From SAR324 cluster bacterium (GTDB lineage Bacteria; SAR324; NAC60-12): DNA of 64,000 nt. The stretch is taken from the NCBI GenBank assembly GCA_015231885.1, contig JADGAT010000005.1, positions 38,381 to 102,380 of the forward strand. The letters run 5' to 3'. The translations under genes and the position numbers were made by a program. Position 1 is the first letter of the stretch. Every line of letters starts with the position of its first letter. Under the pieces are notes generated by a model. The model searched no databases. It saw only the letters and a list, made by a program, of their open reading frames with translations, and was not told where the DNA came from. Below are positions 54,917-64,000 of this stretch, in pieces.

Positions 54917-56617
54917 TCAGGGTTTTCCATGGTTGGGTTCGATCTGTTCGAGACTCCTGGAATAATCCTGGTAGACCGGATCGTTTGGTTCATGGCACTC
55001 CAGGCAGTCTCCCACACGCCGGATACGTCGTATTTCCTGTCGGTTGAAACTGCGTGCTCCAGGCTGGAGGGCCTTGCCAGGCTGCATTGCGTCTTTTTCG
55101 ATCCAACCGACTGGCGTTTTCCAGGCAGGGTTTTTAGGGGCACTCACCCACTCTGTGATGAGACCAAGGGCCAAATCGCTTTGGTGACAGCTTTTACAGC
55201 TTCTTCCTTTTTGGGTAATAGTGTGTGGTGATGTCTGGGCATAGACTTCGTGTTTGATCGGGGCTGCTTCTTTATCCTTTTCTAAAATCAAGTTCATTCC
55301 TGGCACAAATGGAGTGATTTTGTTGCTGGCAGTAACCCCCAAGGCCGGCAATCCGCTTTTAACATGCCAGCGGGTTTCCAGCCATTTTCCTTTTGTTTTT
55401 TTGCGCAGCAGATGATCCCATTGCGTTTTTTCAGGATCATGGGAGATGTGGCAGCCATAACATTGAGGGGCCCAGCCCGAATGGCAGCTTTCGCAGCTGA
55501 GACGGTCATGACCTTCTTGTGCATGGTGCTCCCCTGCACGCATCATGGGAATTTCGAGTTTTTGCCGGGAAAGCTTCTTTTGCAGCCAGTACCTGCCTCC
55601 TTTTTCCTGAATATGGAACAAAGGAGACTGCAGTTTTTCTGTCGCAACCACCTCTCCTGCTGCAGAAACGTGGTACTGTCCTGGATAAAGGGAGGCATAA
55701 ATAGCTTCTCTTTTTGTCAACGTGGCAACGGCTTTCTTGTGCAAAGGTAGTCTGTGGCAATCAGTGCATTGAACATCCAGCTGTTCCCTCATCCAGGCTG
55801 CCCGTTTTCCTGTCCCCATCAAACCATTGGCAGTATGACAGTCAATACAAGCCATCCCTGCCTTACTGTGAATGTCGGGAGGTTTCCTTTCCACTAAACG
55901 CTTATCTGGCAGATAACCAAAATCCTCAATTCGGGCAATGTCGAGCTGTTCGGATTCTGCTAATCCAACATAGTTTAAGGAAATGCGGCCAGATCGACTG
56001 TGGCACCCAAAACAGCGATCATTGTGGATACGAACACTCAGCTGCGGATGGATTTTTTTGATTTGACCTGCTGATGTTTTGGCAGGGTACGTGATCAGAT
56101 GACAGGCAACACAACCGCCACCCCGATCACGCAGAGATTGCTGATGATGCTGACGTTCTGATCCCAGGTGACAGGAAACGCAAAGTTTTCTCAGGTAAGA
56201 ATCAGCTCCTTCTTCAGAAAGACGCTGATGCAGAGAAGTGTTTTTTTCCTGATGAGCTTTCTGACTTTCTCCAAATATGTTCCTGGTGCCAGAGATCATA
56301 CCATCCAGTGTATGCATGATTGAGTTTTCGACCAGGGGGACCAGTGTTTCGTGACAATTGCTTTGCCCACAGGATTTGGCTGAAGTTTTCATATTGCCAG
56401 GAAATGCTTCCATGCCCTGATGTGCCGTTTTTTCATGAGAGCTGTCAGGGTTTCCCTGGTGGCAGATGACACAACCAGTCTGCCGGGGATCATGAAAAGG
56501 GGAAAAACGCGGTTCTTCCTGGTGACACTGCATACATTTTTCGACAGCATGGGTCTGCAGCGACAACCAAACCGTTAACATGAATACGGCTCCAATGCGC
56601 CGCAATATTTTTTGCAT
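54917..56617 (-). CDS. Multiheme cytochrome c (11 CxxCH + 1 CX4CH)
   Basis: CMQCH, CVICH, CGQSNCH, CVSCH, CVACH, CFGCH, CIDCH, CTDCH, CESCH, CYGCH, CKSCH, CLECH. Sec-pathway signal peptide from MQKILRR. Confidence 0.92.
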   Translation of the reverse strand: MQKILRRIGAVFMLTVWLSLQTHAVEKCMQCHQEEPRFSPFHDPRQTGCVICHQGNPDSSHEKTAHQGMEAFPGNMKTSAKSCGQSNCHETLVPLVENSIMHTLDGMISGTRNIFGESQKAHQEKNTSLHQRLSEEGADSYLRKLCVSCHLGSERQHHQQSLRDRGGGCVACHLITYPAKTSAGQIKKIHPQLSVRIHNDRCFGCHSRSGRISLNYVGLAESEQLDIARIEDFGYLPDKRLVERKPPDIHSKAGMACIDCHTANGLMGTGKRAAWMREQLDVQCTDCHRLPLHKKAVATLTKREAIYASLYPGQYHVSAAGEVVATEKLQSPLFHIQEKGGRYWLQKKLSRQKLEIPMMRAGEHHAQEGHDRLSCESCHSGWAPQCYGCHISHDPEKTQWDHLLRKKTKGKWLETRWHVKSGLPALGVTASNKITPFVPGMNLILEKDKEAAPIKHEVYAQTSPHTITQKGRSCKSCHQSDLALGLITEWVSAPKNPAWKTPVGWIEKDAMQPGKALQPGARSFNRQEIRRIRRVGDCLECHEPNDPVYQDYSRSLEQIEPNHGKP

Positions 56618-56954
56618 AATCTTACCGCTTTTAAAATCATGGATTGGTTCTAGATTGTATCTGATCTTGCTGAGACGTACCACATCAATCTGAAAACTTG
56701 CAGACCAATCGCAAGTTTAAGTTCTTTTTGGTCATACTGTTAAATTTACGGGGTTTTCCTCTCATCGGCCTAAGTATATTCAAAAAATCATATAAGTAAC
56801 GTAGGACAACGAGTCTTTTTTCCATCCAAGCAGGCAAAAACAAGGGAAAATCGCCCCTCTCTTTGCGCACAACTGGGGCTTCTGCTGGTGTTGAAGATTG
56901 TGTCCCCGCGGATATCATTCATAAAACAAAGGCCAATGGTGTGGCCATGGGAGT

Positions 56955-57585: not shown

Positions 57586-59799
57586 ATGGCACAGGTGAAC
57601 CGACGAAAATTTTTGAAAATTTCTTCAGCATTTTTGGCTTCTTCAGCAGCTGGCCTGGGATGGCCTCTAATCACAAAAACTTCAAAAGCCCAAGGAATCG
57701 CTGAGCCAGACAGAATTGTTTCTACCACCTGCGAGATATGTTTTTGGCGTTGTGGAGTGGATGCTTATGTCCGTGATGAAAAAGTTTACAAACTGGCTGG
57801 ACACAAGGATCACCCATTGAGTAATGGAAAATTGTGTCCTCGTGGAAATGGCGGCCAGGGGCTTCTTTACGATCCAAATCGACTGAAACACCCTTTGATT
57901 CGGGAAACGGTCAATGGTAAGGAACAATTTCGCAAAGCAAGTTGGGATGAAGCAACCAGTTTGATAGCAGAGCGCTTTGGGAAAATAACGAAACAGTATG
58001 GGACAGAATCCGTGGTGATGTTTTCTCACGGGTTTGGCGCCTCGTTTTTTAAAACCCTGTTTTCGGCTTATGGGATTCACACCTTTTCTGCCCCTTCTTA
58101 TGCACAATGCCGGGGTCCAAGGAGCGAAGCTTTCAAATTAACATTTGGGCATGCCATTGGCAGCCCGGAAGGATTGGATATTGCCAATAGCAGATACTTG
58201 GTTTTGCTCGGATCACACCTTGGCGAAAACATGCACAACACTGCTGTTCAGGATTTTTCTTCAGCCATATCAAAAGGCTGCGAGGTCGTAGTAGTCGATC
58301 CTCGTTTTTCAGTTGCAGCCGGCAAGGCAAAACATTGGTTGCCCATCAAGCCGGGAACCGATTTAGCTCTGCTGCGAGGGTGGATCCATATATTGCTTAA
58401 AGAAAAAAGATACGATATCGAGTTTATTGAACAGAACGCCGTAGGGCTGGAAGAGCTATGGCAAGGAGTAAAGTACGCGACTCCTGAGCAGACGTACGCC
58501 ATTACAGGGATTCCGGTAGAGCAAATCGTACAGGTAGCCAGAGACCTGGGGCGTTATGGTTCCAGTGCCCTGGTTCATCCGGGCAGGCATGTGACCTGGT
58601 ATGGAGACGATACTCAGAGAGAACGGGCTATTGCGATTCTCAATGCACTGATCGGTAATTACCGGATGCCTGGCGGAATCATCAGGCAGGAAAAATTCAC
58701 TCCCATCAAAGCTACTTTGAACCAGGAAAAGTTCAAGCCTTACAAAGCCGATTTTCCGGTAACCCAAAATGCGTCACACACCTTCCAGTCCAGGTACCCA
58801 TTTGCCAGTCAAGTCCCAGCCAATGAAATAGTAGACCAGACTATTTCAGGAAGCCCCTATCCTGTCAAATCCTGGTTTGTCTATGGAACCAACCTGATAC
58901 AGTCTTTAGGCAATCAGCCTGCTACTCTAAAAGCATTGCAACAGCTTGATTTTGTAGTAGCCGTGGATGTCCTGCCGGCTGAAATCACGGGGTATGCAGA
59001 TGTGATTTTGCCTGAATGTACGTACCTGGAACGCTATGATGATCTCGACAACAGAACCTATCGCACTCCCTATGTTGCCATTCGACAACCAGTGGTGGAA
59101 CCGCTCTATGAGTCCAAGCCGGGTCATGAAATCGCAAGGCTGCTCTCCGAAAAAATGGGCATGCCTGACTTATTCAAAGACGATATAGAGACTTACCTGA
59201 ATAAGCAATTGAAGCAGATGGACAGTTCCCTGGACGAGTTAAAAAAAGTGGGAGTGCTGAAAGTCTCAGAAAAGAACTTGTACCGCCAGCCAGGGGAAGC
59301 CCTGCAGTTCAAAACCCCCTCAGGAAAAATAGAACTGGCCTCCAGTCGGCTGCGTGAAGCAGGATTTGATGCAGTCCCCCAATACCAGCCCCCTCCTGAA
59401 AACCCACCCGGGTATTTTCGGTTGCTGTATGGACGAGCCCCCATGCACACTTTTGGGCGCACGGCCAACAATCGGGTGCTGGGAGAATTGATGCCGGAAA
59501 ATGAACTGTGGGTCAACCAAGTGGCAGGACGTGATATGAAACTCAAACATGGAGAATATGTGTACCTGGTCAACCAGGATGGGGTCAAGAGTACAACCAA
59601 AATCAAGATTCGACTGACTGAGCGCATTCGTCCCGATGCTGTTTACATGGTTCATGGATTTGGACACACCGATGCCCGGCTCGAGTTTGCCTATCAGCGA
59701 GGTGTGAATTCCTCTGATATGATCACGCAGCTCAGTACGGACCCCATCATGGGGGCAACCGGCATGAACAATAATTTTGTCACTTTTACCAGAAGTTGA
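57586..59799 (+). CDS. psrA: Polysulfide/thiosulfate reductase-type molybdopterin catalytic subunit (PsrA/PhsA)
   Basis: Tat signal NRRKFLK; CEICFWRC...LCPRG Fe-S motif; putative Mo-ligand Cys in SYAQCRGPR; GENMHN; ADVILPE.TYLERYD. Confidence 0.88.
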
Positions 59800-59810
59800 A
59801 AAGAGGGGCT

Positions 59811-60356
59811 ATGTCAAGAAAAAGAAATTATGCCATGGTGATCGATACTCATGTCTGTGTGGGATGCTCAGCCTGTGTGTATGCCTGTAAGGCAGAAAAT
59901 GAGGTCCCCGAAGGATTTTGCAGAGACTGGATAGAACAAAAAGTTGAAGGCCATTTTCCAAAGTTGACCATGGAAATCCGATCCAATCGCTGCCAACACT
60001 GTGAGGAGGCCCCCTGTGTGACTTACTGCCCAACAGGCTCGTCCCACTATGCAGGAGACGGGACGGTGCAAATTGACCGAAACTGGTGTACAGGCTGCAA
60101 AGCCTGTCTGGCAGCCTGTCCCTACGATGCCCGTTATGTTCACCCTGAAGGCTTTGTTGACAAATGCTCTTTTTGCCAGCACCGTTTGAAACAGGGATTA
60201 CAGCCTGCCTGCGTGACCACGTGCCCAACCAGCGCATTGAAATTAGTCGATTTGAACAGCAATGATGGTTTGTACAGACAGTTAATCGAAGGGCGCACAG
60301 TAACACAAGATAAGGTTCCGGCCGGAACACAACCCAAGTTGTTTTGGCTTCATTAA
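59811..60356 (+). CDS. psrB: 4Fe-4S electron-transfer subunit (PsrB/NrfC)
   Basis: [43 protein letters not shown]...PACVTTCP. Confidence 0.9.
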
Positions 60357-60369
60357 AAGGAGAACACCC

Positions 60370-61320
60370 ATGACTGAGCTTGTTACTAATAAAATCAATC
60401 CCAATGTGATACCCCACTTACACATTTGGGGATGGGATGTTGCCATTTATTTGTTTTTAGGGGGGATCGCAGGAGGATTGCTCATCATCAGCGCTGCGAT
60501 GATATTACTGCAGAAGGGCGGTATTTTCAGTCCAGAGGAGCAGACCGCAGAATACAGCAGACAAATTCAAGTAGCATCTTTACTGGCTCCGGTTTTGCTG
60601 GGGGTGGGGATGTTCTTTTTGTTCTTGGATTTAGAATTCAAAATGCACGTCTGGCGTTTTTACACCAACTTCAATTTAACATCTCCCATGTCCTGGGGAA
60701 GCTGGGCCTTGTTGATTTTTTTCCCATTTTCCGTGTTTCAGGCAATAGTCGTGTGTCAATTTTCCCAAATACCCCGGTTTTTATTTTTGGCAAGCTGGGA
60801 AAGCACACTGAAGCCTTATTTGAACAAAATTGCTGCTGTCAATGTGCATGTTGGTATGGGTATTGGGGTGTACACCGGAATTCTTCTTTCCACTTACTAT
60901 GCACGTCCCCTGTGGTCGAATACAGTGCTGGGTTTTGTTTTTCTGCTGTCAGGGCTTTCCTCAGCGGCTGCTCTGCTGCTGCTCATTGCTCCTTCCCGAG
61001 AAAAACAGCTTTATTCTAAAATCGACATGTACATCATTGCAGCAGAAGGATTTGCCACCACTCTGTTCATTCTAGGTGGAATCACAGGTACTGAAAACAT
61101 GAAAAATGCGATGCTGTACTTGATTGCAGGCCCATATGCCCCCTGGTTCTGGATTTTGTTTGTGCTGGCCGGACTGATCATTCCTCTCGTTTTAGAGACC
61201 CTTGAGGCCATTGGAAAAATTCGATTTTCTCCATTTGTGCCGCTGCTGGTACTGATAGGAAGTATTTCTCTCCGATTTATTATTGTCTATGCAGGCCAGG
61301 AAATTCCGACATTTTCTTAA
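60370..61320 (+). CDS. psrC: NrfD/PsrC membrane anchor
   Basis: W...VAIYLFLGGIAGG, L.LDL, SPMSWGSW, YTG.LL, RPLW, LRF..V.AGQ. Confidence 0.9.
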   Translation: MTELVTNKINPNVIPHLHIWGWDVAIYLFLGGIAGGLLIISAAMILLQKGGIFSPEEQTAEYSRQIQVASLLAPVLLGVGMFFLFLDLEFKMHVWRFYTNFNLTSPMSWGSWALLIFFPFSVFQAIVVCQFSQIPRFLFLASWESTLKPYLNKIAAVNVHVGMGIGVYTGILLSTYYARPLWSNTVLGFVFLLSGLSSAAALLLLIAPSREKQLYSKIDMYIIAAEGFATTLFILGGITGTENMKNAMLYLIAGPYAPWFWILFVLAGLIIPLVLETLEAIGKIRFSPFVPLLVLIGSISLRFIIVYAGQEIPTFS

Positions 61321-61418: not shown

Positions 61419-61946
61419 ATGGAAAATATAGAAATCAAGCAACAGCCTTATTGGCCTAATATTCTTGCTGGAATCGGATTGGGGCTGGTCTTATTGCTGG
61501 CCTATTACGTAGCAGGGAGAGGTTTGGGAGGATCTGGAGCTTTAGCCAGAGCTTCAGCGGGATTAGCTCACTTGCTGGCCCCTGAGCACACAGAAGGATT
61601 GACCTATTACTCCCGATATTTTGAAAACGGAAAAGTTGATTTCAATGACTGGCTTGTCTTTCAGCTGTTTGGTGTCTTTCTAGGAGGGTTATTTGGTGCC
61701 GTTACCGCAGGCCGATTTGGAAAAGCCGTAGACAAAGGAAAACGGATTACCAATGGACAGCGCTTCTTCTTTGCCACCATTGGAGGTATACTCATGGGTT
61801 GGGGCGCACGCCTGGCAAAAGGCTGTACCAGCGGACAGGCATTGAGCGGCGGCGCAACACTGGCTGTCGGAAGCTGGGCATTTATGCTGGCTTTATTTGC
61901 TGGCGGGTTCATTACTGCATTTTTTGTCAGGAGATTATGGATATGA
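61419..61946 (+). CDS. YeeE/YedE sulfur-compound transporter subunit
   Basis: W...AGI.LG, GLG.SG, GGILMG.GARLA.GCTSG..LSG. Confidence 0.88.
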   Translation: MENIEIKQQPYWPNILAGIGLGLVLLLAYYVAGRGLGGSGALARASAGLAHLLAPEHTEGLTYYSRYFENGKVDFNDWLVFQLFGVFLGGLFGAVTAGRFGKAVDKGKRITNGQRFFFATIGGILMGWGARLAKGCTSGQALSGGATLAVGSWAFMLALFAGGFITAFFVRRLWI

Positions 61947-62527
61947 ATACAGCTCCCCTTGCAAAATTAGGAATGATTTCAGCTGATGTCAATCTGGTTC
62001 TGGCCGGATTGATTGGATTCGGCTTTGGCTTCATGCTCGAAAGAGCAGGTTTTGGCTCTGCAATTCGTTTGACGGGACAATGGTATGGTAAGGACTGGAG
62101 CGTGTTTCGTGTGATGTTTACGGCAATTGTGACCGCAATGTTTGGGATCATTGCCCTCGACAGCATGAATTTGATGGCTACCGAGCAGCTGTATATCAAC
62201 AAAACCTTTCTTTATCCTCAAATTATTGGAGGTTTACTGATGGGAGGCGGCTTTGCCATTGGAGGGTACTGTCCGGGAACGTCGTTTGTCGGATTGGCAA
62301 CAGGCAAGCTGGATGCCATCTTCTATATTTCAGGTTTGATGTTTGGTGCCTTTTTATTTGCAGAAGGCTGGCCCCTTCTGGAACAATTTTCAACTGCCGG
62401 GGCAATGGGGACCATTACCCTTCCTGAGCTATTTGGCTGGAGTCCTTGGCTGGTTGGAGCAGTTGTGTTGTTGATTGCGGTAGTTGGTACATTGGGTGCT
62501 AATTATCTAGAAAAGAAATTGGCTTAA
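61943..62527 (+). CDS. YeeE/YedE sulfur-compound transporter subunit
   Basis: GFGFGF.LERAGF, D..V..VMF.AI, GG.L.G.GF..GGYCPGT. The ATG overlaps the upstream stop. Confidence 0.88.
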   Translation: MNTAPLAKLGMISADVNLVLAGLIGFGFGFMLERAGFGSAIRLTGQWYGKDWSVFRVMFTAIVTAMFGIIALDSMNLMATEQLYINKTFLYPQIIGGLLMGGGFAIGGYCPGTSFVGLATGKLDAIFYISGLMFGAFLFAEGWPLLEQFSTAGAMGTITLPELFGWSPWLVGAVVLLIAVVGTLGANYLEKKLA

Positions 62528-62548
62528 TTCATAAATTCAGGAGGTTCT

Positions 62549-63853
62549 ATGAAGCCGTTTATCAAAATGTTTGCATTGCTTCTGTTGCTGCCTGTCATGC
62601 TGGCAGGCCTTGCAACAGCAGCTCAGCTCAAAGGAAAAATCCAAAATATTTCCAATAAAGCAAAGACCATCCAGGTGGTCAATCCGAAGAATAAAAAAGT
62701 AACGGTGATTCGATTTGGGAAAAAGACACAGTTTGTCAATGCCAAATCGATGAAAGAGTTCATTGTCAATGATGTCATTGTGGCAGATTATGAACCAGGG
62801 CAACCAGCCACTAAAATCAAGCGAGTACTGGTAGAAGTGCCTGCCGACCAGCTCATTTCCACCAAAGAAGTCGCAGCCCTGGCTCCTGATTCTTATGTAC
62901 TGGTCGATGCCCGTCCTGCCGCAAGATACAACGAAGGACACATGCCCAGCGCCATCTCGATTCCTGCTGATAAGTTTTCTGAAAAGATGGATCTTTTACC
63001 CAAGGACAAAGACAAAAAACTTGTTTTTTATTGTGGAGGGCCTACCTGAGGCCTCAGCACTAAAGCTGCCAGGTTGGCAGCAAAAGCAGGATACAAGAAC
63101 ATAAAAATCTACACGGCAGGGATACCTGCATGGAAAAAAGCAAAGCAGCTGGTTGTCGTTAAAAATTCATGGCTGGCAAAAAACCTGGATATCCATCATG
63201 TCATTGTGGATGTACGACCAACTCAACAAAGTCGACCTTCTGGAATAAAAACATCCCTTTCTTTTGAAACCGCCCAGCTTGAAACCATGAGTCAGCAATT
63301 CAAGCAGAAGAAGGTGAAATCCAGCCATAAGAATCTGCCTAACTTGGTTGACAAAAAAGCTCCCATCATCCTGTACAGCGAAAAAACCGACAGTGCTGAT
63401 GTCGTAAAAGCCTATCAGACGCTGCGCAGCTGGAAGTATAAAAACGTTACCATTTTAGATGGCGGTTTCAAAGAGTGGACTCACAAACAGCTGCCCGTTC
63501 AAAATAATGTACGGCTGACCAAAATAAACTTTGTTAAGAAACTGGTCAAGGGAGCCATCTCACCTGAGAATTTTAAACAGTTCCATGACTCAAATGAGGG
63601 TCTTGTCCTGGATGTCCGCACCAAAAAAGAAGCGAAAGCAGGAAAGCTCAATGGATCCATGAATGTTCCGCTGGATACGCTGGAAGCTAATTTAGCAAGC
63701 GTCCCCAAAAATAAAGAGGTGGCCATCCACTGTGTATCCGGAACACGTGCTAATATTGCCTATAATCTTTTGAAAAGCAAAGGCTACCAAAAAGTGCGTT
63801 TCCTGAATAATAATATTACCATCGATAAAGACGGTGATTATAAAATCGATTGA
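62549..63853 (+). CDS. Secreted multi-domain rhodanese, probable selenoprotein (Sec at codon 167; 434 aa)
   Basis: ORFs 62549..63049 and 63074..63853 share one frame, separated only by TGA 63047-63049 (FYCGGPT-U-GLSTKAARLAAKAGY). A hairpin follows. Signal peptide; third rhodanese domain with HCVSGTRA. Confidence 0.85.
63047..63081 (+). promoter_or_regulatory. Bacterial SECIS-like element
   Basis: TGA, 15 nt, then GCTGCC-AGGTT-GGCAGC. The loop resembles the E. coli fdhF SECIS (UUGC-AGGUCU-GCA). Confidence 0.75.
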
Positions 63854-63882: not shown

Positions 63883-64000
63883 ATGACGACAATAGATCAA
63901 AAGTGGGTGCTTCCTCTTTTTATAGCAGGCTTTCTGGTTTTGATTGGACTGACCAACCTTCCAGCCTCATCCTACTGGTATGATTCAGTAGAAGATTATC
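63883..64000 (+). CDS. Next gene of the operon (3' partial), exported or membrane protein
   Basis: GAGGT RBS; MTTIDQKWVLPLFIAGFLVLIGL...; open to the window end. Confidence 0.55.
   Translation, partial: MTTIDQKWVLPLFIAGFLVLIGLTNLPASSYWYDSVEDY

What the first reader, a model, noticed from the sequence alone, without database searches (positions are those of the whole stretch)
62549..63853. Hidden selenoprotein: one multi-rhodanese split by an in-frame UGA in a CGGPT-U active-site loop, with a SECIS hairpin
Seen: the two 'ORFs' share a frame, and the only interruption is TGA at 63047, in the middle of a rhodanese fold (VDARP...GH.P.AISIP...LVFYCGGPT*GLS.KAA...GY.N...Y..G...W). The downstream 'ORF' has only a TTG start and no obvious RBS. 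A GCTGCC-AGGTT-GGCAGC hairpin begins 15 nt after the UGA. Known: bacterial Sec insertion uses a hairpin just 3' of the UGA with an apical G/GU, and many rhodaneses have a Cys at this position (CGGxxC). Inference: a 434-aa exported protein with an N-terminal beta-rich domain, a Cys-X4-Sec rhodanese, a Cys-less rhodanese and a CVSGTR rhodanese, probably a sulfur or selenium carrier. Standard annotation would miss it.
Basis: partly seen in the sequence, partly recalled or inferred. Interest (0 to 1): 0.9.

Follow-up and report, generated by a model that had tools for sequence, protein, structure and literature searches.

The report
Mis-split selenocysteine triple-rhodanese gene
The two adjacent reading frames are one gene for an exported three-rhodanese protein whose internal UGA most likely encodes selenocysteine; the catch is right, but this kind of selenoprotein appears to be catalogued already and is simply cut in two by routine gene callers.

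Summary

**One gene.** Window 62549-63853 (+) is a single 434-codon gene, interrupted only by TGA at 63047-63049.

**Why the TGA is selenocysteine:**
- 107 of the 110 homologues that cover that column have Cys there (CGGPTC).
- 17 distinct genomes carry TGA at exactly this codon.
- A hairpin 15 nt downstream (63065-63081, loop AGGUU) is kept by compensatory changes in 4 of 7 pairs. 91.6% of cells are paired, against 25-57% when the partners are slid.
- The hairpin meets all four published bacterial SECIS criteria.
- The genome has selA, selB, a Sec-containing selD and tRNA-Sec.
- TGA is otherwise an ordinary stop, including this gene's own.

**The protein.** It has a signal peptide, a beta domain, a rhodanese with a C162-x4-U167 loop, a Cys-less rhodanese and a CVSGTR rhodanese. 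The AF2 model has pLDDT 95.

**Context.** The gene sits in a conserved cluster with a Tat-exported PhsA/PsrA-like molybdoenzyme, its FeS and NrfD subunits, and two half-size YeeE proteins. This suggests a periplasmic sulfur (possibly selenium) relay.

**Novelty.** Rhodanese selenoproteins are catalogued, including a "UxxS" form from Geobacter. A Geobacter-like genome carries this same C-x4-U-x-x-S family. Gene callers truncate it almost everywhere: 110 of 120 listed short hits end at the UGA. This is a new member of a known kind.

The parts
62539..62544 (+). Shine-Dalgarno-like AGGAGG, 4 nt upstream of the ATG
   Evidence: Read directly.
62549..63853 (+). Single coding sequence of the triple-rhodanese selenoprotein: 434 codons plus terminal TGA, with Sec at codon 167
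   Evidence: Full-length homologues of about 430 aa. TGA-bearing orthologues with an open frame across the TGA.
62549..62620 (+). Probable Sec-type signal peptide (residues 1-24: hydrophobic helix, then A-T-A before A25)
   Evidence: Inference by eye. AF2 helix at residues 4-18. No signal-peptide predictor was run.
62621..62833 (+). N-terminal beta-rich domain (about residues 25-95), no Pfam family
   Evidence: AF2 strands E25-35, 40-44, 51-55, 61-63, 76-81 and 89-92. No Pfam hit for residues 1-104.
62873..63142 (+). Rhodanese domain 1 (Pfam best stretch, residues 109-198), with active-site loop C162-G-G-P-T-U167
   Evidence: C162, T166 and C167 are at least 90% conserved in alignment A2.
63032..63034 (+). 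TGT codon of Cys162, the canonical catalytic position of the rhodanese loop
63047..63049 (+). In-frame UGA read as selenocysteine (residue 167, position +5 of the loop)
   Evidence: Cys in 107 of 110 homologues. TGA at the same codon in 17 distinct genomes.
63065..63081 (+). bSECIS hairpin GCUGCC-AGGUU-GGCAGC: 6 bp, loop begins 21 nt after the UGA
   Evidence: covariation, RNAalifold consensus. Criteria taken.
63161..63508 (+). Rhodanese domain 2 (about residues 205-320), Cys-less and so presumably inactive; boundaries approximate
   Evidence: Three PF00581 stretches. AF2 elements 206-319. No Cys in this stretch.
63554..63820 (+). Rhodanese domain 3 (about residues 336-424) with the classical loop C395-V-S-G-T-R400; the Cys codon is at 63731-63733
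   Evidence: stretch 336-424. C395 and R400 are at least 90% conserved.
57586..59799 (+). PhsA/PsrA-like molybdopterin oxidoreductase with a twin-arginine leader (NRRKFLK); same operon direction
   Evidence: (PhsA model 472.9 bits, below the 694 cut-off).
59796..60356 (+). 4Fe-4S electron-transfer subunit (PhsB/PsrB/NrfC-like)
60370..61320 (+). NrfD/PsrC-type membrane quinol subunit
61419..62527 (+). Two half-size YeeE/YedE (Sulf_transp, PF04143) membrane proteins (61419-61946 and 61943-62527)
54917..56683 (-). Divergent multihaem cytochrome c, ExtM-like (216.9 bits, below the 800 cut-off)
   Evidence: Next to the cluster in 5 of 7 loci; the other two are cut by contig ends.
63883..64000 (+). 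Start of a conserved downstream gene (215 aa; runs off the window): membrane-anchored, probably a Cys-less rhodanese-like protein
   Evidence: present in 7 of 7 loci; no Pfam; Atlas lead: PF00581 clusters, score 0.90.

Best explanation
Window 62549-63853 is one gene for an exported (probably periplasmic) selenoprotein of 434 residues.

**Reading the UGA.** SelB with Sec-tRNA(Sec) reads the UGA at 63047 as selenocysteine. It is directed by the hairpin at 63065-63081 inside the coding sequence. The same triplet at 63851 has no such hairpin and terminates the protein.

**Domain order.** Signal peptide, small beta domain, rhodanese 1 with active-site loop C162-G-G-P-T-U167, a Cys-less rhodanese 2, and rhodanese 3 with a classical C395-V-S-G-T-R loop.

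**What Sec replaces.** Sec does not replace the catalytic Cys. It replaces a second, family-conserved Cys at loop position +5.

**Inferred mechanism.** C162 takes up sulfane sulfur as a persulfide. U167 then acts as the neighbouring nucleophile. It either resolves the persulfide, releasing sulfide and forming a Cys-S-Se-Sec bond that a periplasmic thiol:disulfide oxidoreductase re-reduces, or it holds a short S(n) bridge. The protein would then pass sulfur (possibly selenium) to or from the Tat-exported PhsA/PsrA-like molybdoenzyme encoded just upstream, in the way Sud serves polysulfide reductase.

**Shown:** one gene; Cys/Sec pair; conserved and covarying SECIS; Sec machinery in the genome; three-rhodanese fold; conserved gene neighbourhood.

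**Inferred:** export, the chemistry of the C-x4-U pair, the substrate, and the partnership with the molybdoenzyme.

**My odds:** about 0.93 that it is a real selenoprotein gene, and about 0.5 that it is a sulfur or chalcogen relay or redox partner of the Phs/Psr-like enzyme.
For: **Cys/Sec pair.** 107 of the 110 homologues that cover the column have Cys.

**Split annotation.**
- All 10 homologues that lack the column are C-terminal pieces. Seven of them start at the same spurious 'MA.K.GY' start as the window's downstream ORF.
- 110 of 120 listed short hits end at YC-x4.

**TGA at the same codon elsewhere.**
- 15 of the 88 genomes searched in the phylum carry it.
- Two Desulfobacterota-type MAG loci carry it (L005 and L006). 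L007 is the same genome as G072.
- One ExtH-bearing genome, G192, carries it.

**Hairpin.**
- In 18 rows (17 distinct), 91.6% of cells are paired, against 25-57% when the partners are slid.
- 4 of 7 pairs show changes on both sides.
- 0 of 500 shuffles reach the covariation score.
- The loop G (alignment column 32) is invariant.
- RNAalifold recovers the same stem.
- Some compensatory changes are non-synonymous (KAARLAAK versus KSARLAEK).

**Non-Sec homologues.** At the same columns they form 5, 4, 3, 3, 1, 7, 2, 3 and 2 of 7 pairs (9 loci).

**bSECIS criteria** from the review's Fig. 2 legend are all met here: 5-nt loop AGGUU, 6-bp stem, 21 nt spacing, -12.0 kcal/mol.

**In-genome comparators.** selD and a Prx-like UxxC gene have similar hairpins 10-11 nt after their UGA.

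**Sec machinery.**
- selA, 469.6 bits.
- SelB wing domain, 52.8 bits.
- selD, 373.9 bits, with one in-frame TGA.
- tRNA-SeC with anticodon tca.

**Genetic code.** TGA ends 13 of the 33 ORFs of at least 250 codons in the window, including PhsA, YeeE-a and this gene.

**Fold.** AF2 pLDDT 95.1, pTM 0.89.

**Context.**
- PhsABC-like genes are adjacent in 7 of 7 loci of the family, although the rhodanese gene sits on either side of them.
- Both YeeE halves are present in 6 of 7 loci.
- The downstream 215-aa gene is present in 7 of 7.
- PhsA has an RRxFLK leader.
Against: - There is no direct evidence of selenium in the protein or of expression.
- The single-sequence fold is not distinctive (z -0.91), and its MFE is a competing structure that pairs the UGA region with the 3' arm.
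- In 3 of the 17 distinct TGA-bearing sequences the local 33-nt fold (G082 -5.3; G079 and G076 -6.8 kcal/mol) is weaker than the -7.5 of the bSECIS model.
- One Cys form (G069) keeps a perfect 7 of 7 hairpin, so the hairpin alone is not diagnostic. The tree places it inside a Sec clade, which fits a recent Sec-to-Cys change.
- The link to Phs/Psr is seen only in the SAR324-type clade. No Phs genes lie within the fetched flanks of L005 or L006, and L007 shows only a weak PhsB-like hit at its edge. I ran no Phs-specific search of the G192 locus (one search lists ORFs only).
- The molybdoenzyme scores below the PhsA cut-off (472.9 versus 694), so its substrate is open.
- I could not measure the Cys-Sec distance in the model.
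Confidence: 0.85

Rival explanations
1. The UGA is a true stop. The locus is either two separate genes (a 166-aa fragment and a 259-aa protein started at TTG 63074) or a pseudogene.
For: Gene callers annotate it this way: the window's own products P0123 (166 aa) and P0002 (259 aa) appear as separate proteins. The single-sequence fold of the region is not better than shuffles.
Against: - The break falls in the middle of a rhodanese fold, inside the active-site loop.
- There is no SD before the TTG.
- Frame and sequence stay conserved across the TGA in 17 distinct genomes, down to 33% identity.
- The TGA column is Cys in 107 of 110 homologues.
- The downstream hairpin covaries.
Confidence: 0.03
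2. The UGA is decoded, but not as Sec: either a reassigned code (TGA = Trp or Gly) or near-cognate read-through giving Cys or Trp.
For: Read-through alone would also keep the frame open. No selenium measurement exists.
Against: - TGA terminates 13 of the 33 long ORFs in the window, including this gene.
- The genome has a complete Sec set and tRNA-Sec.
- The position pairs with Cys, which is typical of Sec.
- The SECIS criteria are met.
Confidence: 0.03
3. It is the same selenoprotein, but its job is selenium handling rather than sulfur handling. It would serve as a carrier or reductase partner for a respiratory selenite/tellurite-type reductase. Precedents are the SrrABC selenite reductase operon of Bacillus selenitireducens, which encodes two rhodanese-domain proteins (SrrE, SrrF), and the ExtH rhodanese of the Geobacter selenite/tellurite cluster.
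For: - A review passage describes srrA-F, with a Tat-exported 80-kDa molybdoenzyme, FeS and anchor subunits, and 38- and 45-kDa rhodanese-domain proteins.
- The divergent neighbour is an ExtM-like multihaem cytochrome (216.9 bits).
- The two YeeE halves give weak hits to YedE selenium-transporter models as well as to TsuA (34.1 and 31.2 bits, far below cut-offs).
- P0001 gives faint hits to ExtH and ExtJ (E 3e-4 and 7e-4).
Against: - All these matches fall below the family cut-offs.
- The best-scoring model for the catalytic subunit is thiosulfate reductase PhsA.
- Named relatives come from sulfur-disproportionating or sulfur-cycling Desulfobulbales such as Desulfocapsa sulfexigens.
- No Srr sequence was available to compare.
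Confidence: 0.15
4. It is the same selenoprotein acting on its own as a periplasmic redox-defence or sulfane-sulfur detoxifying enzyme. The Phs-like neighbourhood would be only a lineage-specific accident.
For: Clade-B members (L005, L006) have no Phs genes within about 6 kb. No obvious neighbour of that kind appears in the ORF list for G192. Periplasmic rhodaneses are reported as highly expressed in Desulfobulbales irrespective of Phs/Psr (passages of PMC13047784).
Against: In the SAR324-type clade the association survives a rearrangement. The rhodanese gene lies before phsA in 4 loci and after the YeeE position in 3, which argues for selection on the linkage.
Confidence: 0.2

Closest known systems
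Rhodanese-like domain-containing selenoprotein 'form 1' (PF00581, motif UxxS, exemplar WP_010941598.1). The 2026 review (PMC13188914) and the 2022 review (PMC9312934) list it and credit it to the 2005 bSECISearch paper.
   Same: It has only a PF00581 domain, one Sec, and the motif U-x-x-S. Here the motif is U167-G-L-S170, and all 18 TGA forms read U-x-L-S or U-G-F-S. An ExtH-bearing (Geobacter-like) genome, G192, has exactly one TGA-interrupted rhodanese gene. That gene belongs to this family: YFCAGVT-U-ALS, 35% identity over residues 95-433, with a hairpin at the same offset. A Cys homologue of it (53% identity) is named 'sulfur transferase selenocysteine-containing protein' by NCBI.
   Different: I could not fetch the exemplar sequence, so identity of the families is inferred (about 0.75). 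The G192-type members carry an N-terminal CxxCH haem motif that the window protein lacks. The SAR324 members sit in a Phs/Psr-like operon.
TsoB, the rhodanese/DsbD fusion-like selenoprotein (NF045694, motif UxxxxU; 'form 5')
   Same: Its Sec lies at loop position +5 of a rhodanese domain, with the same five-residue spacing as here. The model matches residues 101-200.
   Different: The score is 80.1 bits against a cut-off of 805. TsoB is listed with two Sec in a UxxxxU motif, so its first loop position would be Sec where this protein has Cys. It also has a DsbD-like fusion, and the architecture differs (572-position model versus beta domain plus three rhodaneses).
Rhodanese_LYCAU (NF041203; 'form 3', motif CxU)
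   Same: It is a rhodanese selenoprotein whose Sec follows the loop Cys. It was the second-best NCBIfam hit. Such genes (YCA-TGA-P) occur in 3 of the 5 ExtH-bearing genomes searched.
   Different: The score is 90.5 bits against a cut-off of 115. The spacing is C-x-U, not C-x4-U, and it is a single-domain model of 126 positions.
BH2092 of Bacillus halodurans (PDB 3NHV, 3O3W), a structural-genomics rhodanese
   Same: It is the closest solved structure to domain 1 (E 4e-14; Foldseek TMt 0.70, rmsd 1.7 over 111 columns). It has the same two-Cys loop, YCWGPAC.
   Different: It is single-domain, has Cys rather than Sec, and its function is unknown.
Sud, the periplasmic polysulfide-sulfur transferase that serves polysulfide reductase PsrABC in Wolinella succinogenes. 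Its role is recalled from memory. The paper search for it gave only listings, and the passages I read cite rhodaneses as sulfur suppliers to sulfur-reducing enzymes in Aquifex.
   Same: It is a periplasmic rhodanese-fold sulfur carrier next to a Psr/Phs-type molybdoenzyme. PDB 1qxn matches domain 3 at E 5.8e-11. The entry is titled 'sulfide dehydrogenase'; that it is Sud is recalled.
   Different: Sud is a small single-domain homodimer with one Cys and no Sec. Nothing here was tested functionally.
SrrE/SrrF rhodanese-domain proteins of the respiratory selenite reductase operon (Bacillus selenitireducens), and ExtH of the Geobacter ext cluster
   Same: These are multi-domain rhodanese proteins of 38-49 kDa encoded beside Tat-exported molybdoenzymes or multihaem cytochromes that act on chalcogens.
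   Different: The ExtH model gives only 19.9 bits (cut-off 200). No Srr sequence was compared. The passages I read do not report Sec for either.
YnjE, the three-rhodanese sulfurtransferase of E. coli (PDB 2WLR, 3IPO)
   Same: It has three tandem rhodanese domains and is of similar length.
   Different: The match is weak (E 3e-12 on one domain; TMq 0.25). It has no C-x4-C/U loop, no Sec and no N-terminal beta domain.

Membership tests
Bacterial selenoprotein gene (SelB/SECIS-dependent UGA recoding) | In-frame UGA aligned with Cys in homologues (Cys/Sec pair) | tested here: met
   107 of the 110 homologues that cover the column have Cys.
Bacterial selenoprotein gene (SelB/SECIS-dependent UGA recoding) | TGA-containing orthologues in other organisms | tested here: met
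   17 distinct genomes in alignment A1, plus G192, all at the same codon.
Bacterial selenoprotein gene (SelB/SECIS-dependent UGA recoding) | bSECIS model: 3-9 nt loop, 4-16 bp stem, G in the first two loop positions, 16-37 nt from the UGA, MFE <= -7.5 kcal/mol (criteria from PMC13188914, Fig. 2 legend) | tested here: met
   Loop AGGUU, 6 bp, 21 nt spacing, -12.0 kcal/mol for the 33-nt region. Covariation. bSECISearch itself was not available.
Bacterial selenoprotein gene (SelB/SECIS-dependent UGA recoding) | selA, selB, selC and selD present in the genome | tested here: met
   (tRNA-SeC, anticodon tca).
Bacterial selenoprotein gene (SelB/SECIS-dependent UGA recoding) | Selenium actually incorporated at the UGA | not testable with these tools
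   This needs 75Se labelling or mass spectrometry. No sequencing run was listed for the locus.
Rhodanese-like selenoprotein form 1 (UxxS) | PF00581 domain with Sec in a U-x-x-S motif | tested here: met
   U167-G-L-S170. PF00581 at E 8.7e-47.
Rhodanese-like selenoprotein form 1 (UxxS) | Homology to the exemplar WP_010941598.1 | tested here: inconclusive
   The exemplar could not be fetched. Indirect support comes from the orthologue in the ExtH-bearing genome G192 and from the NCBI name of its Cys homologue P0250.
NF041203 rhodanese_LYCAU | Score above the curated cut-off, and a C-x-U motif | tested here: not met
   90.5 bits against 115. The motif here is C-x4-U.
NF045694 TsoB | Score above the cut-off; rhodanese/DsbD-like fusion; two Sec (UxxxxU) | tested here: not met
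   80.1 bits against 805. One Sec, and no DsbD-like part.
NF040901 ExtH | Score above the cut-off | tested here: not met
   19.9 bits against 200.
Sud-type periplasmic sulfur carrier for Psr/Phs | Exported rhodanese encoded with, and serving, a periplasmic Psr/Phs molybdoenzyme | tested here: inconclusive
   Adjacency holds in 7 of 7 loci of the clade, and PhsA has a Tat leader. Export of the rhodanese is judged by eye only, and sulfur transfer was not tested.

The most novel reading that the evidence does not exclude
The C-x4-U loop would turn a rhodanese from a plain sulfur carrier into a selenium-dependent persulfide or polysulfide-resolving redox site. Sec at loop position +5 would attack the persulfide on the catalytic Cys and form a selenenylsulfide. 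That bond would be recycled in the periplasm, for example by the Prx/TlpA-like UxxC selenoprotein encoded two genes downstream in G000 and G001. Together with the Phs/Psr-like enzyme, the two half-YeeE proteins and a membrane-anchored rhodanese-like protein, this would form a so far uncharacterised selenium-dependent periplasmic sulfur relay. Such a relay would matter for sulfur cycling by SAR324-type bacteria and by sulfur-disproportionating Desulfobulbales, where the gene is routinely annotated as a truncated 'rhodanese'.
Probability: 0.25. Interest if true: 0.6.

Novelty: new member of a known kind. Interest (0 to 1): 0.3.

Why it matters
- **Annotation.** The gene is split in the public gene calls of this genome, and the same thing happens very widely. 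110 of 120 listed short database relatives stop at the UGA. One of them is the 'Rhodanese-related sulfurtransferase' of the cultured sulfur disproportionator Desulfocapsa sulfexigens. Surveys of sulfur metabolism that count 'periplasmic rhodaneses' may therefore be working with half-proteins. One recent survey, PMC13047784, never mentions selenocysteine (0 occurrences).
- **Biochemistry.** Sec sits beside the catalytic Cys rather than replacing it. This points to a two-residue redox chemistry in a fold usually treated as a one-Cys transferase, and it is directly testable with U167C and C162S variants.
- **Ecology.** The conserved link to a Phs/Psr-like enzyme gives a concrete candidate for a selenium-dependent step in the sulfur metabolism of this lineage.
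- **Limit.** None of this overturns current knowledge. The family appears already to be in the selenoprotein catalogues.

Tried and rejected
- **Single-sequence folding of 63040-63110.** It is not better than shuffles, and its MFE differs from the proposed hairpin. I set it aside in favour of the comparative evidence.
- **Sequence error at the TGA.** Rejected, because 17 distinct genomes share the TGA.
- **Reassigned genetic code.** Rejected.
- **Whole-protein fold search.** It returned only generic multi-rhodanese proteins (TMq about 0.2), so no solved structure has this architecture.
- **Sequence search of PDB.** No family member is solved. BH2092 is the nearest to domain 1.
- **Pfam gaps.** Pfam finds nothing for the N-terminal beta domain, the downstream 215-aa protein or the 143-aa ORF beyond it.
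- **Atlas search for the 215-aa protein.** It gives a rhodanese lead only.
- **Sequencing runs.** None was listed and no RNA holder was listed, so I made no read-level or expression check and did not use read laying.
- **The search of earlier findings.** It was closed.
- **Papers not held.**
  - Kryukov & Gladyshev 2004, tried by DOI and by PMC id.
  - Haft & Tolstoy 2025.
  - I did not try to fetch the 2005 bSECISearch paper that first reported the Geobacter rhodanese selenoprotein; I assumed it was not open. What I say about 'form 1' rests on table rows in two reviews.
- **Supplements.** Supplementary tables are closed. Those of PMC8318568 and of the selenoproteome surveys may list this very family.
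- **Literature searches.**
  - A search for 'sulfur transferase' + 'selenocysteine-containing' + Geobacter returned one paper, with nothing relevant in the passages read.
  - I found no paper text describing a C-x4-U rhodanese loop. The searches were made, and 'CxxxxU' has 0 occurrences in the 2026 review.
- **Not used.** Complex prediction, because I claim no tested binding. The search of protein representatives and the second structure job were also not used.
- **Rows dropped.**
  - For alignment A2 I used 78 of the 121 proteins then held. I left out the short fragments and some near-duplicates by hand.
  - In the tree L007 was left out as a duplicate of G072, and G192 enters with residues 95-433 only.
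Full report
**What is in the sequence.**
- On the + strand, an ATG at 62549 is preceded by AGGAGG at 62539-62544. It opens a frame that runs to a TGA at 63851-63853.
- The only interruption is a TGA at 63047-63049.
- Mechanical ORF listing splits this into a 166-aa ORF and a 259-aa ORF. The second starts at a TTG (63074) with no Shine-Dalgarno-like run before it.
- Read through, the product (P0001, 434 residues) carries three Rhodanese stretches (PF00581, E 8.7e-47).
- The break lies inside the first rhodanese, in its active-site loop: ...VFYC162-G-G-P-T-[TGA]-G-L-S...
- The hairpin GCTGCC-AGGTT-GGCAGC is at 63065-63081, 15 nt after the TGA.

**Is UGA = Sec plausible in this organism?**
- The window is contig C197 of a 5.13-Mb, 241-contig genome (92.6% complete).
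- That genome has selA (469.6 bits) and a SelB winged-helix domain in a 662-aa frame (52.8 bits).
- It has selD (373.9 bits), itself with one in-frame TGA, and a tRNA-SeC with anticodon tca.
- TGA is not reassigned. It ends 13 of the 33 ORFs of at least 250 codons in the window, including the neighbouring PhsA-like and YeeE-a genes and this gene itself. TAA ends the other 20.
- No hairpin follows the terminal TGA: 3 of 7 pairs form at the equivalent columns.

**Cys/Sec pair and mis-annotation.**
- A search with P0001 listed 120 relatives. Of these, 110 cover the UGA column, and 107 have Cys there (CGGPTC and variants). The other three have G, G and R (the script's count of 108 included the query).
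- The other 10 relatives are C-terminal pieces. Seven of them begin at the same spurious 'MA.K.GY' start as the window's own downstream ORF.
- I then searched with domain 1 alone among proteins of 63-203 aa. This gave 158 hits at E <= 1e-5, of which 120 were listed. Of those 120, 110 end exactly at YC-x4 (CGGPT, CGGFR, CGGYT, CGGRT and others). They are N-terminal halves cut at a stop codon in the same place.
- Named examples include Desulfocapsa sulfexigens DSM 10523 and MAGs labelled Desulfobulbaceae, Desulfocapsaceae, Nitrospirota and Spirochaetales.
- The Sec form is therefore common, and gene callers split it routinely.

**Independent TGA-bearing orthologues.**
- Whole-genome searches read through stops. 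Among 41 relatives, six genomes (G000, G001, G004, G005, G021, G011) have a full-length match with exactly one TGA.
- Among all 88 genomes held for the phylum, 20 have a match at E <= 1e-40, and 15 of those carry a one-TGA form.
- Three named MAG loci (L005 Desulfopila sp.; L006 and L007 labelled as delta proteobacteria) also carry the TGA. L007 proved to be the same genome as G072.
- In every case the TGA is the codon after C-x4.
- Two clades appear. Clade A is 50-77% identical to the window protein and reads CGGPT-U-G[LF]S. Clade B is 33-38% identical and reads C[GA]G.T-U-[RQH]LS.

**The hairpin is selected as RNA.**
- I aligned 18 sixty-nucleotide segments (17 distinct) gaplessly.
- For the 7-pair helix at alignment columns 24-30 and 36-42 (window 63064-63082), 91.6% of cells are standard pairs. 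With the 3' partners slid by 1-3 columns the figure is 25-57%.
- Four of the 7 pairs show changes on both sides: UA/GC/GU, UA/CG/GU, CG/AU/UA and UA/AU. Three pairs never vary.
- None of 500 shuffles reaches the observed covariation score or the paired fraction. The tool warns that related sequences inflate the shuffle test, so the slid control is the fairer one.
- RNAalifold independently returns the 6-pair core.
- Some compensatory changes cost amino-acid replacements. GCU...AGC (Ala...Ala) becomes UCC...GGA (Ser...Glu), which is KAARLAAK against KSARLAEK.
- The second loop base, G, is invariant.
- The published bSECIS model asks for a loop of 3-9 nt, a stem of 4-16 bp, a G in the first two loop positions, 16-37 nt between the UGA and the loop, and MFE <= -7.5 kcal/mol (Fig. 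2 legend of PMC13188914).
- The window's element has loop AGGUU, 6 bp, 21 nt spacing and -12.0 kcal/mol.
- Three of the 17 distinct sequences are weaker than -7.5 in the 33-nt fold (G082 -5.3; G079 and G076 -6.8).
- Two other Sec genes of the same genome have similar elements. selD has AAGUCC-GGUC-GGGCUU 11 nt after its UGA. A Prx-like UxxC gene has GGCGGGA-GUU-UCCCGUC 10 nt after its UGA.

**Contrast with non-Sec relatives.**
- Nine loci whose homologue has Cys, Ser, Asp or Gln at the column form 5, 4, 3, 3, 1, 7, 2, 3 and 2 of the 7 pairs.
- The exception is G069, a Cys form with 7 of 7 pairs.
- In a maximum-likelihood tree of 27 rows it sits inside Sec clade B with 100/99 support. It looks like a recent Sec-to-Cys change with a relic SECIS.
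- The tree needs at least three Sec/Cys changes that starred branches force.

**The protein.**
- AlphaFold2 on a 78-sequence alignment gives pLDDT 95.1 and pTM 0.89.
- The model shows an N-terminal helix (residues 4-18, taken as a signal peptide with A-T-A before A25; inference, no predictor run).
- A beta domain follows (strands between residues 25 and 92; no Pfam family), and then three alpha/beta rhodanese units.
- Columns conserved at 90% or more include C162, T166 and C/U167 in domain 1, and C395 and R400 in domain 3.
- Domain 2 has no Cys.
- In rhodaneses the first loop residue is the catalytic Cys. Here Sec occupies position +5, where classical enzymes have Arg, Thr or Ser (established knowledge of the fold; domain 3 shows it as CVSGTR).
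- The nearest solved structure to domain 1 is BH2092 of Bacillus halodurans (3NHV, 3O3W; E 4e-14; Foldseek TMt 0.70, rmsd 1.7). It has the same two-Cys loop, YCWGPAC, and no assigned function.
- No solved protein has the whole architecture. The best whole-chain TMq values are about 0.2-0.25, for 1YT8, 6MXV, EanB and YnjE.

**Neighbourhood.** Upstream on the same strand lie:
- a PhsA/PsrA-like molybdopterin oxidoreductase (57586-59799; best model thiosulfate reductase PhsA, 472.9 bits, below its 694 cut-off) with a twin-arginine leader NRRKFLK;
- a four-cluster FeS subunit (59796-60356);
- an NrfD/PsrC-type membrane subunit (60370-61320);
- two half-size YeeE/YedE 'sulphur transport' proteins (61419-62527).

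An ExtM-like multihaem cytochrome c is divergently transcribed (54917-56683; 216.9 bits, below the cut-off).

Downstream lie:
- a 215-aa membrane-anchored protein with no Pfam hit, for which the ESM Atlas gives a rhodanese lead;
- beyond the window, a signal-peptide-bearing AhpC-TSA/redoxin protein with WATW-TGA-PSC. This is a second selenoprotein, of the known Prx-like UxxC kind.

Across seven loci of the clade (six Sec forms and the Cys form of G013):
- The PhsABC-like genes are adjacent to the rhodanese gene in 7 of 7.
- The 215-aa gene is present in 7 of 7.
- Both YeeE halves are present in 6 of 7. G001 keeps only a 58-residue remnant.
- The cytochrome is present in 5 of 7. The other two loci are cut by contig ends.
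- The UxxC redoxin is present only in G000 and G001.
- The rhodanese gene lies after the YeeE position in three loci and before phsA in four. The linkage has therefore survived a rearrangement.
- The clade-B loci L005 and L006 show no Phs genes in their flanks.

**How it most likely works.**
- Shown: a SelB/SECIS-type recoding signal in a gene whose product is a three-rhodanese protein.
- Inferred: the protein is exported to the periplasm, where the catalytic subunit of the neighbouring molybdoenzyme also resides.
- Inferred: C162 accepts sulfane sulfur as a persulfide. U167, five residues on in the same loop, is a better nucleophile and leaving group than Cys.
- U167 then either resolves the persulfide to sulfide plus a Cys-S-Se-Sec bond, which a periplasmic thiol:disulfide oxidoreductase re-reduces, or it clamps a short sulfur chain.
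- Domain 3 acts as an ordinary transferase site.
- The whole protein would feed or drain the Phs/Psr-like enzyme as Sud does for polysulfide reductase (role recalled). Passages of PMC6378623 cite rhodaneses as sulfur suppliers to sulfur-reducing enzymes.
- A selenium-handling role is a live rival. The only known respiratory selenite reductase operon encodes a similar Tat-exported molybdoenzyme plus two rhodanese-domain proteins (passage of PMC12481199). Geobacter's ext cluster also links a rhodanese (ExtH) with selenite and tellurite reduction and with a polysulfide-reducing multihaem selenoprotein.

**Comparison with what is known.**
- The 2026 review of prokaryotic selenoproteomes lists five rhodanese selenoprotein forms: UxxS (WP_010941598.1), UxxG, CxU (NF041203), UxxG, and UxxxxU (TsoB, NF045694). 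The 2022 review lists the first three.
- P0001 falls below the cut-offs of NF041203 (90.5 against 115) and NF045694 (80.1 against 805).
- Its motif is U-G-L-S, that is UxxS.
- To test the link to form 1 I looked for Geobacter-like genomes. Of 401 genomes sampled from the phylum of L005's genome (G088), 9 have an ExtH equivalog above the cut-off.
- I searched five of those nine for rhodanese domains.
- One of them, G192 (best ExtH score, 544.6 bits), has a single TGA-interrupted rhodanese match, in a three-rhodanese gene.
- That gene reads YFCAGVT-TGA-ALS and is 35% identical to P0001 over residues 95-433. It has a hairpin CUCCGCC-CGUGA-GGCGGAG at the same offset and an N-terminal CAICH haem motif.
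- TGA-interrupted rhodaneses in three of the other four are of the YCA-TGA-P (CxU) type. The one in G189 did not match P0001.
- A search with the G192 protein found 858 relatives at E <= 1e-30. Among the 120 listed is P0250, a Cys form at 53% identity, which NCBI names 'sulfur transferase selenocysteine-containing protein' (GAB4297419.1). Such a name is most simply explained by transfer from a reference member annotated as a selenoprotein.
- I therefore judge, at about 0.75, that this is the long-catalogued form 1. I could not see the exemplar sequence or the 2005 paper.

**Verdict.**
The gene is a selenoprotein gene that annotation splits.
- It is not a new kind of selenoprotein. It is a new member, in a SAR324-type genome and in a Phs/Psr-YeeE operon, of a predicted but biochemically uncharacterised family.
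- I did not find these features described in the text I could search: the position of Sec beside rather than in place of the catalytic Cys, the conserved operon, the relic SECIS in a Cys descendant, and the scale of mis-annotation.
- They are of moderate interest.

**Limits.**
- There is no selenium or expression evidence.
- No sequencing run was listed.
- Supplementary tables and three key papers were not available.
- The structure model's coordinates could not be measured.
- The function is inferred from fold, motif and neighbourhood only.

Noticed in passing
Outside the window, same contig: L029 7972-8442 (G000:C197 about 102971-103441), + strand: This is a second split selenoprotein gene. 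It encodes a signal-peptide-bearing AhpC-TSA/redoxin protein (PF00578, E 1.5e-26) with WATW-TGA-PSC, that is UxxC. A 7-bp hairpin (loop GUU) starts 10 nt after the UGA. It matches the known 'Prx-like thiol:disulfide oxidoreductase' selenoprotein family. It is present next to the cluster only in G000 and G001.
   Followed up: partly
window 63883-64000 and onward (L029 7264-7911): A conserved 215-aa gene follows the rhodanese or YeeE genes in 7 of 7 loci. It has an N-terminal membrane helix, no Pfam hit and an acidic tail ending in ...EEEEGC. The ESM Atlas points to rhodanese clusters (score 0.90) and to Rhodanese + Sulf_transp fusion proteins, so it may be a Cys-less rhodanese partner of the YeeE halves.
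   Followed up: partly
L044 (G069:C88), homologue of the window gene: This Cys-form homologue (YCAGDTC) keeps a perfect 7 of 7 hairpin at the SECIS position and nests inside a Sec clade (100/99 support). It looks like a relic SECIS left after a Sec-to-Cys replacement.
   Followed up: yes
L054 5623-7014 (G192) and proteins P0243, P0250, P0326: Members of the family from the Geobacter-like/Desulfuromonadia-type branch carry a CxxCH haem-c motif (CAICH, CMGCH, CTNCH) just after the signal peptide. The window protein lacks it. This suggests a haem-linked version of the same rhodanese.
   Followed up: no
window 54917-56683 (-): This 588-aa multihaem cytochrome c is most similar to ExtM of the Geobacter selenite/tellurite (ext) cluster (216.9 bits, below the 800 cut-off). 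It is divergently transcribed from the Phs-like operon and is conserved beside it in 5 of 7 loci.
   Followed up: partly
L040/L041 (G078, G077), L042 (G070), L050 (G072): Paralogues or relatives of the family have lost both loop residues (YSHGVTS, YGEGPTD, YGDGPTQ). The G072 copy also has an in-frame TAG. They look like degenerate, non-catalytic first domains.
   Followed up: no
G088 and G089 (genomes of L005 and L006): These genomes each carry two or three separate TGA-bearing copies of the family. G088 has three matches with one TGA each, and G089 has two.
   Followed up: no
L030 7128-7301 (G001): In the same-genus genome, only a 58-residue remnant of the second YeeE half was detected between the NrfD-like and rhodanese genes. 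No match to the first half was found.
   Followed up: no
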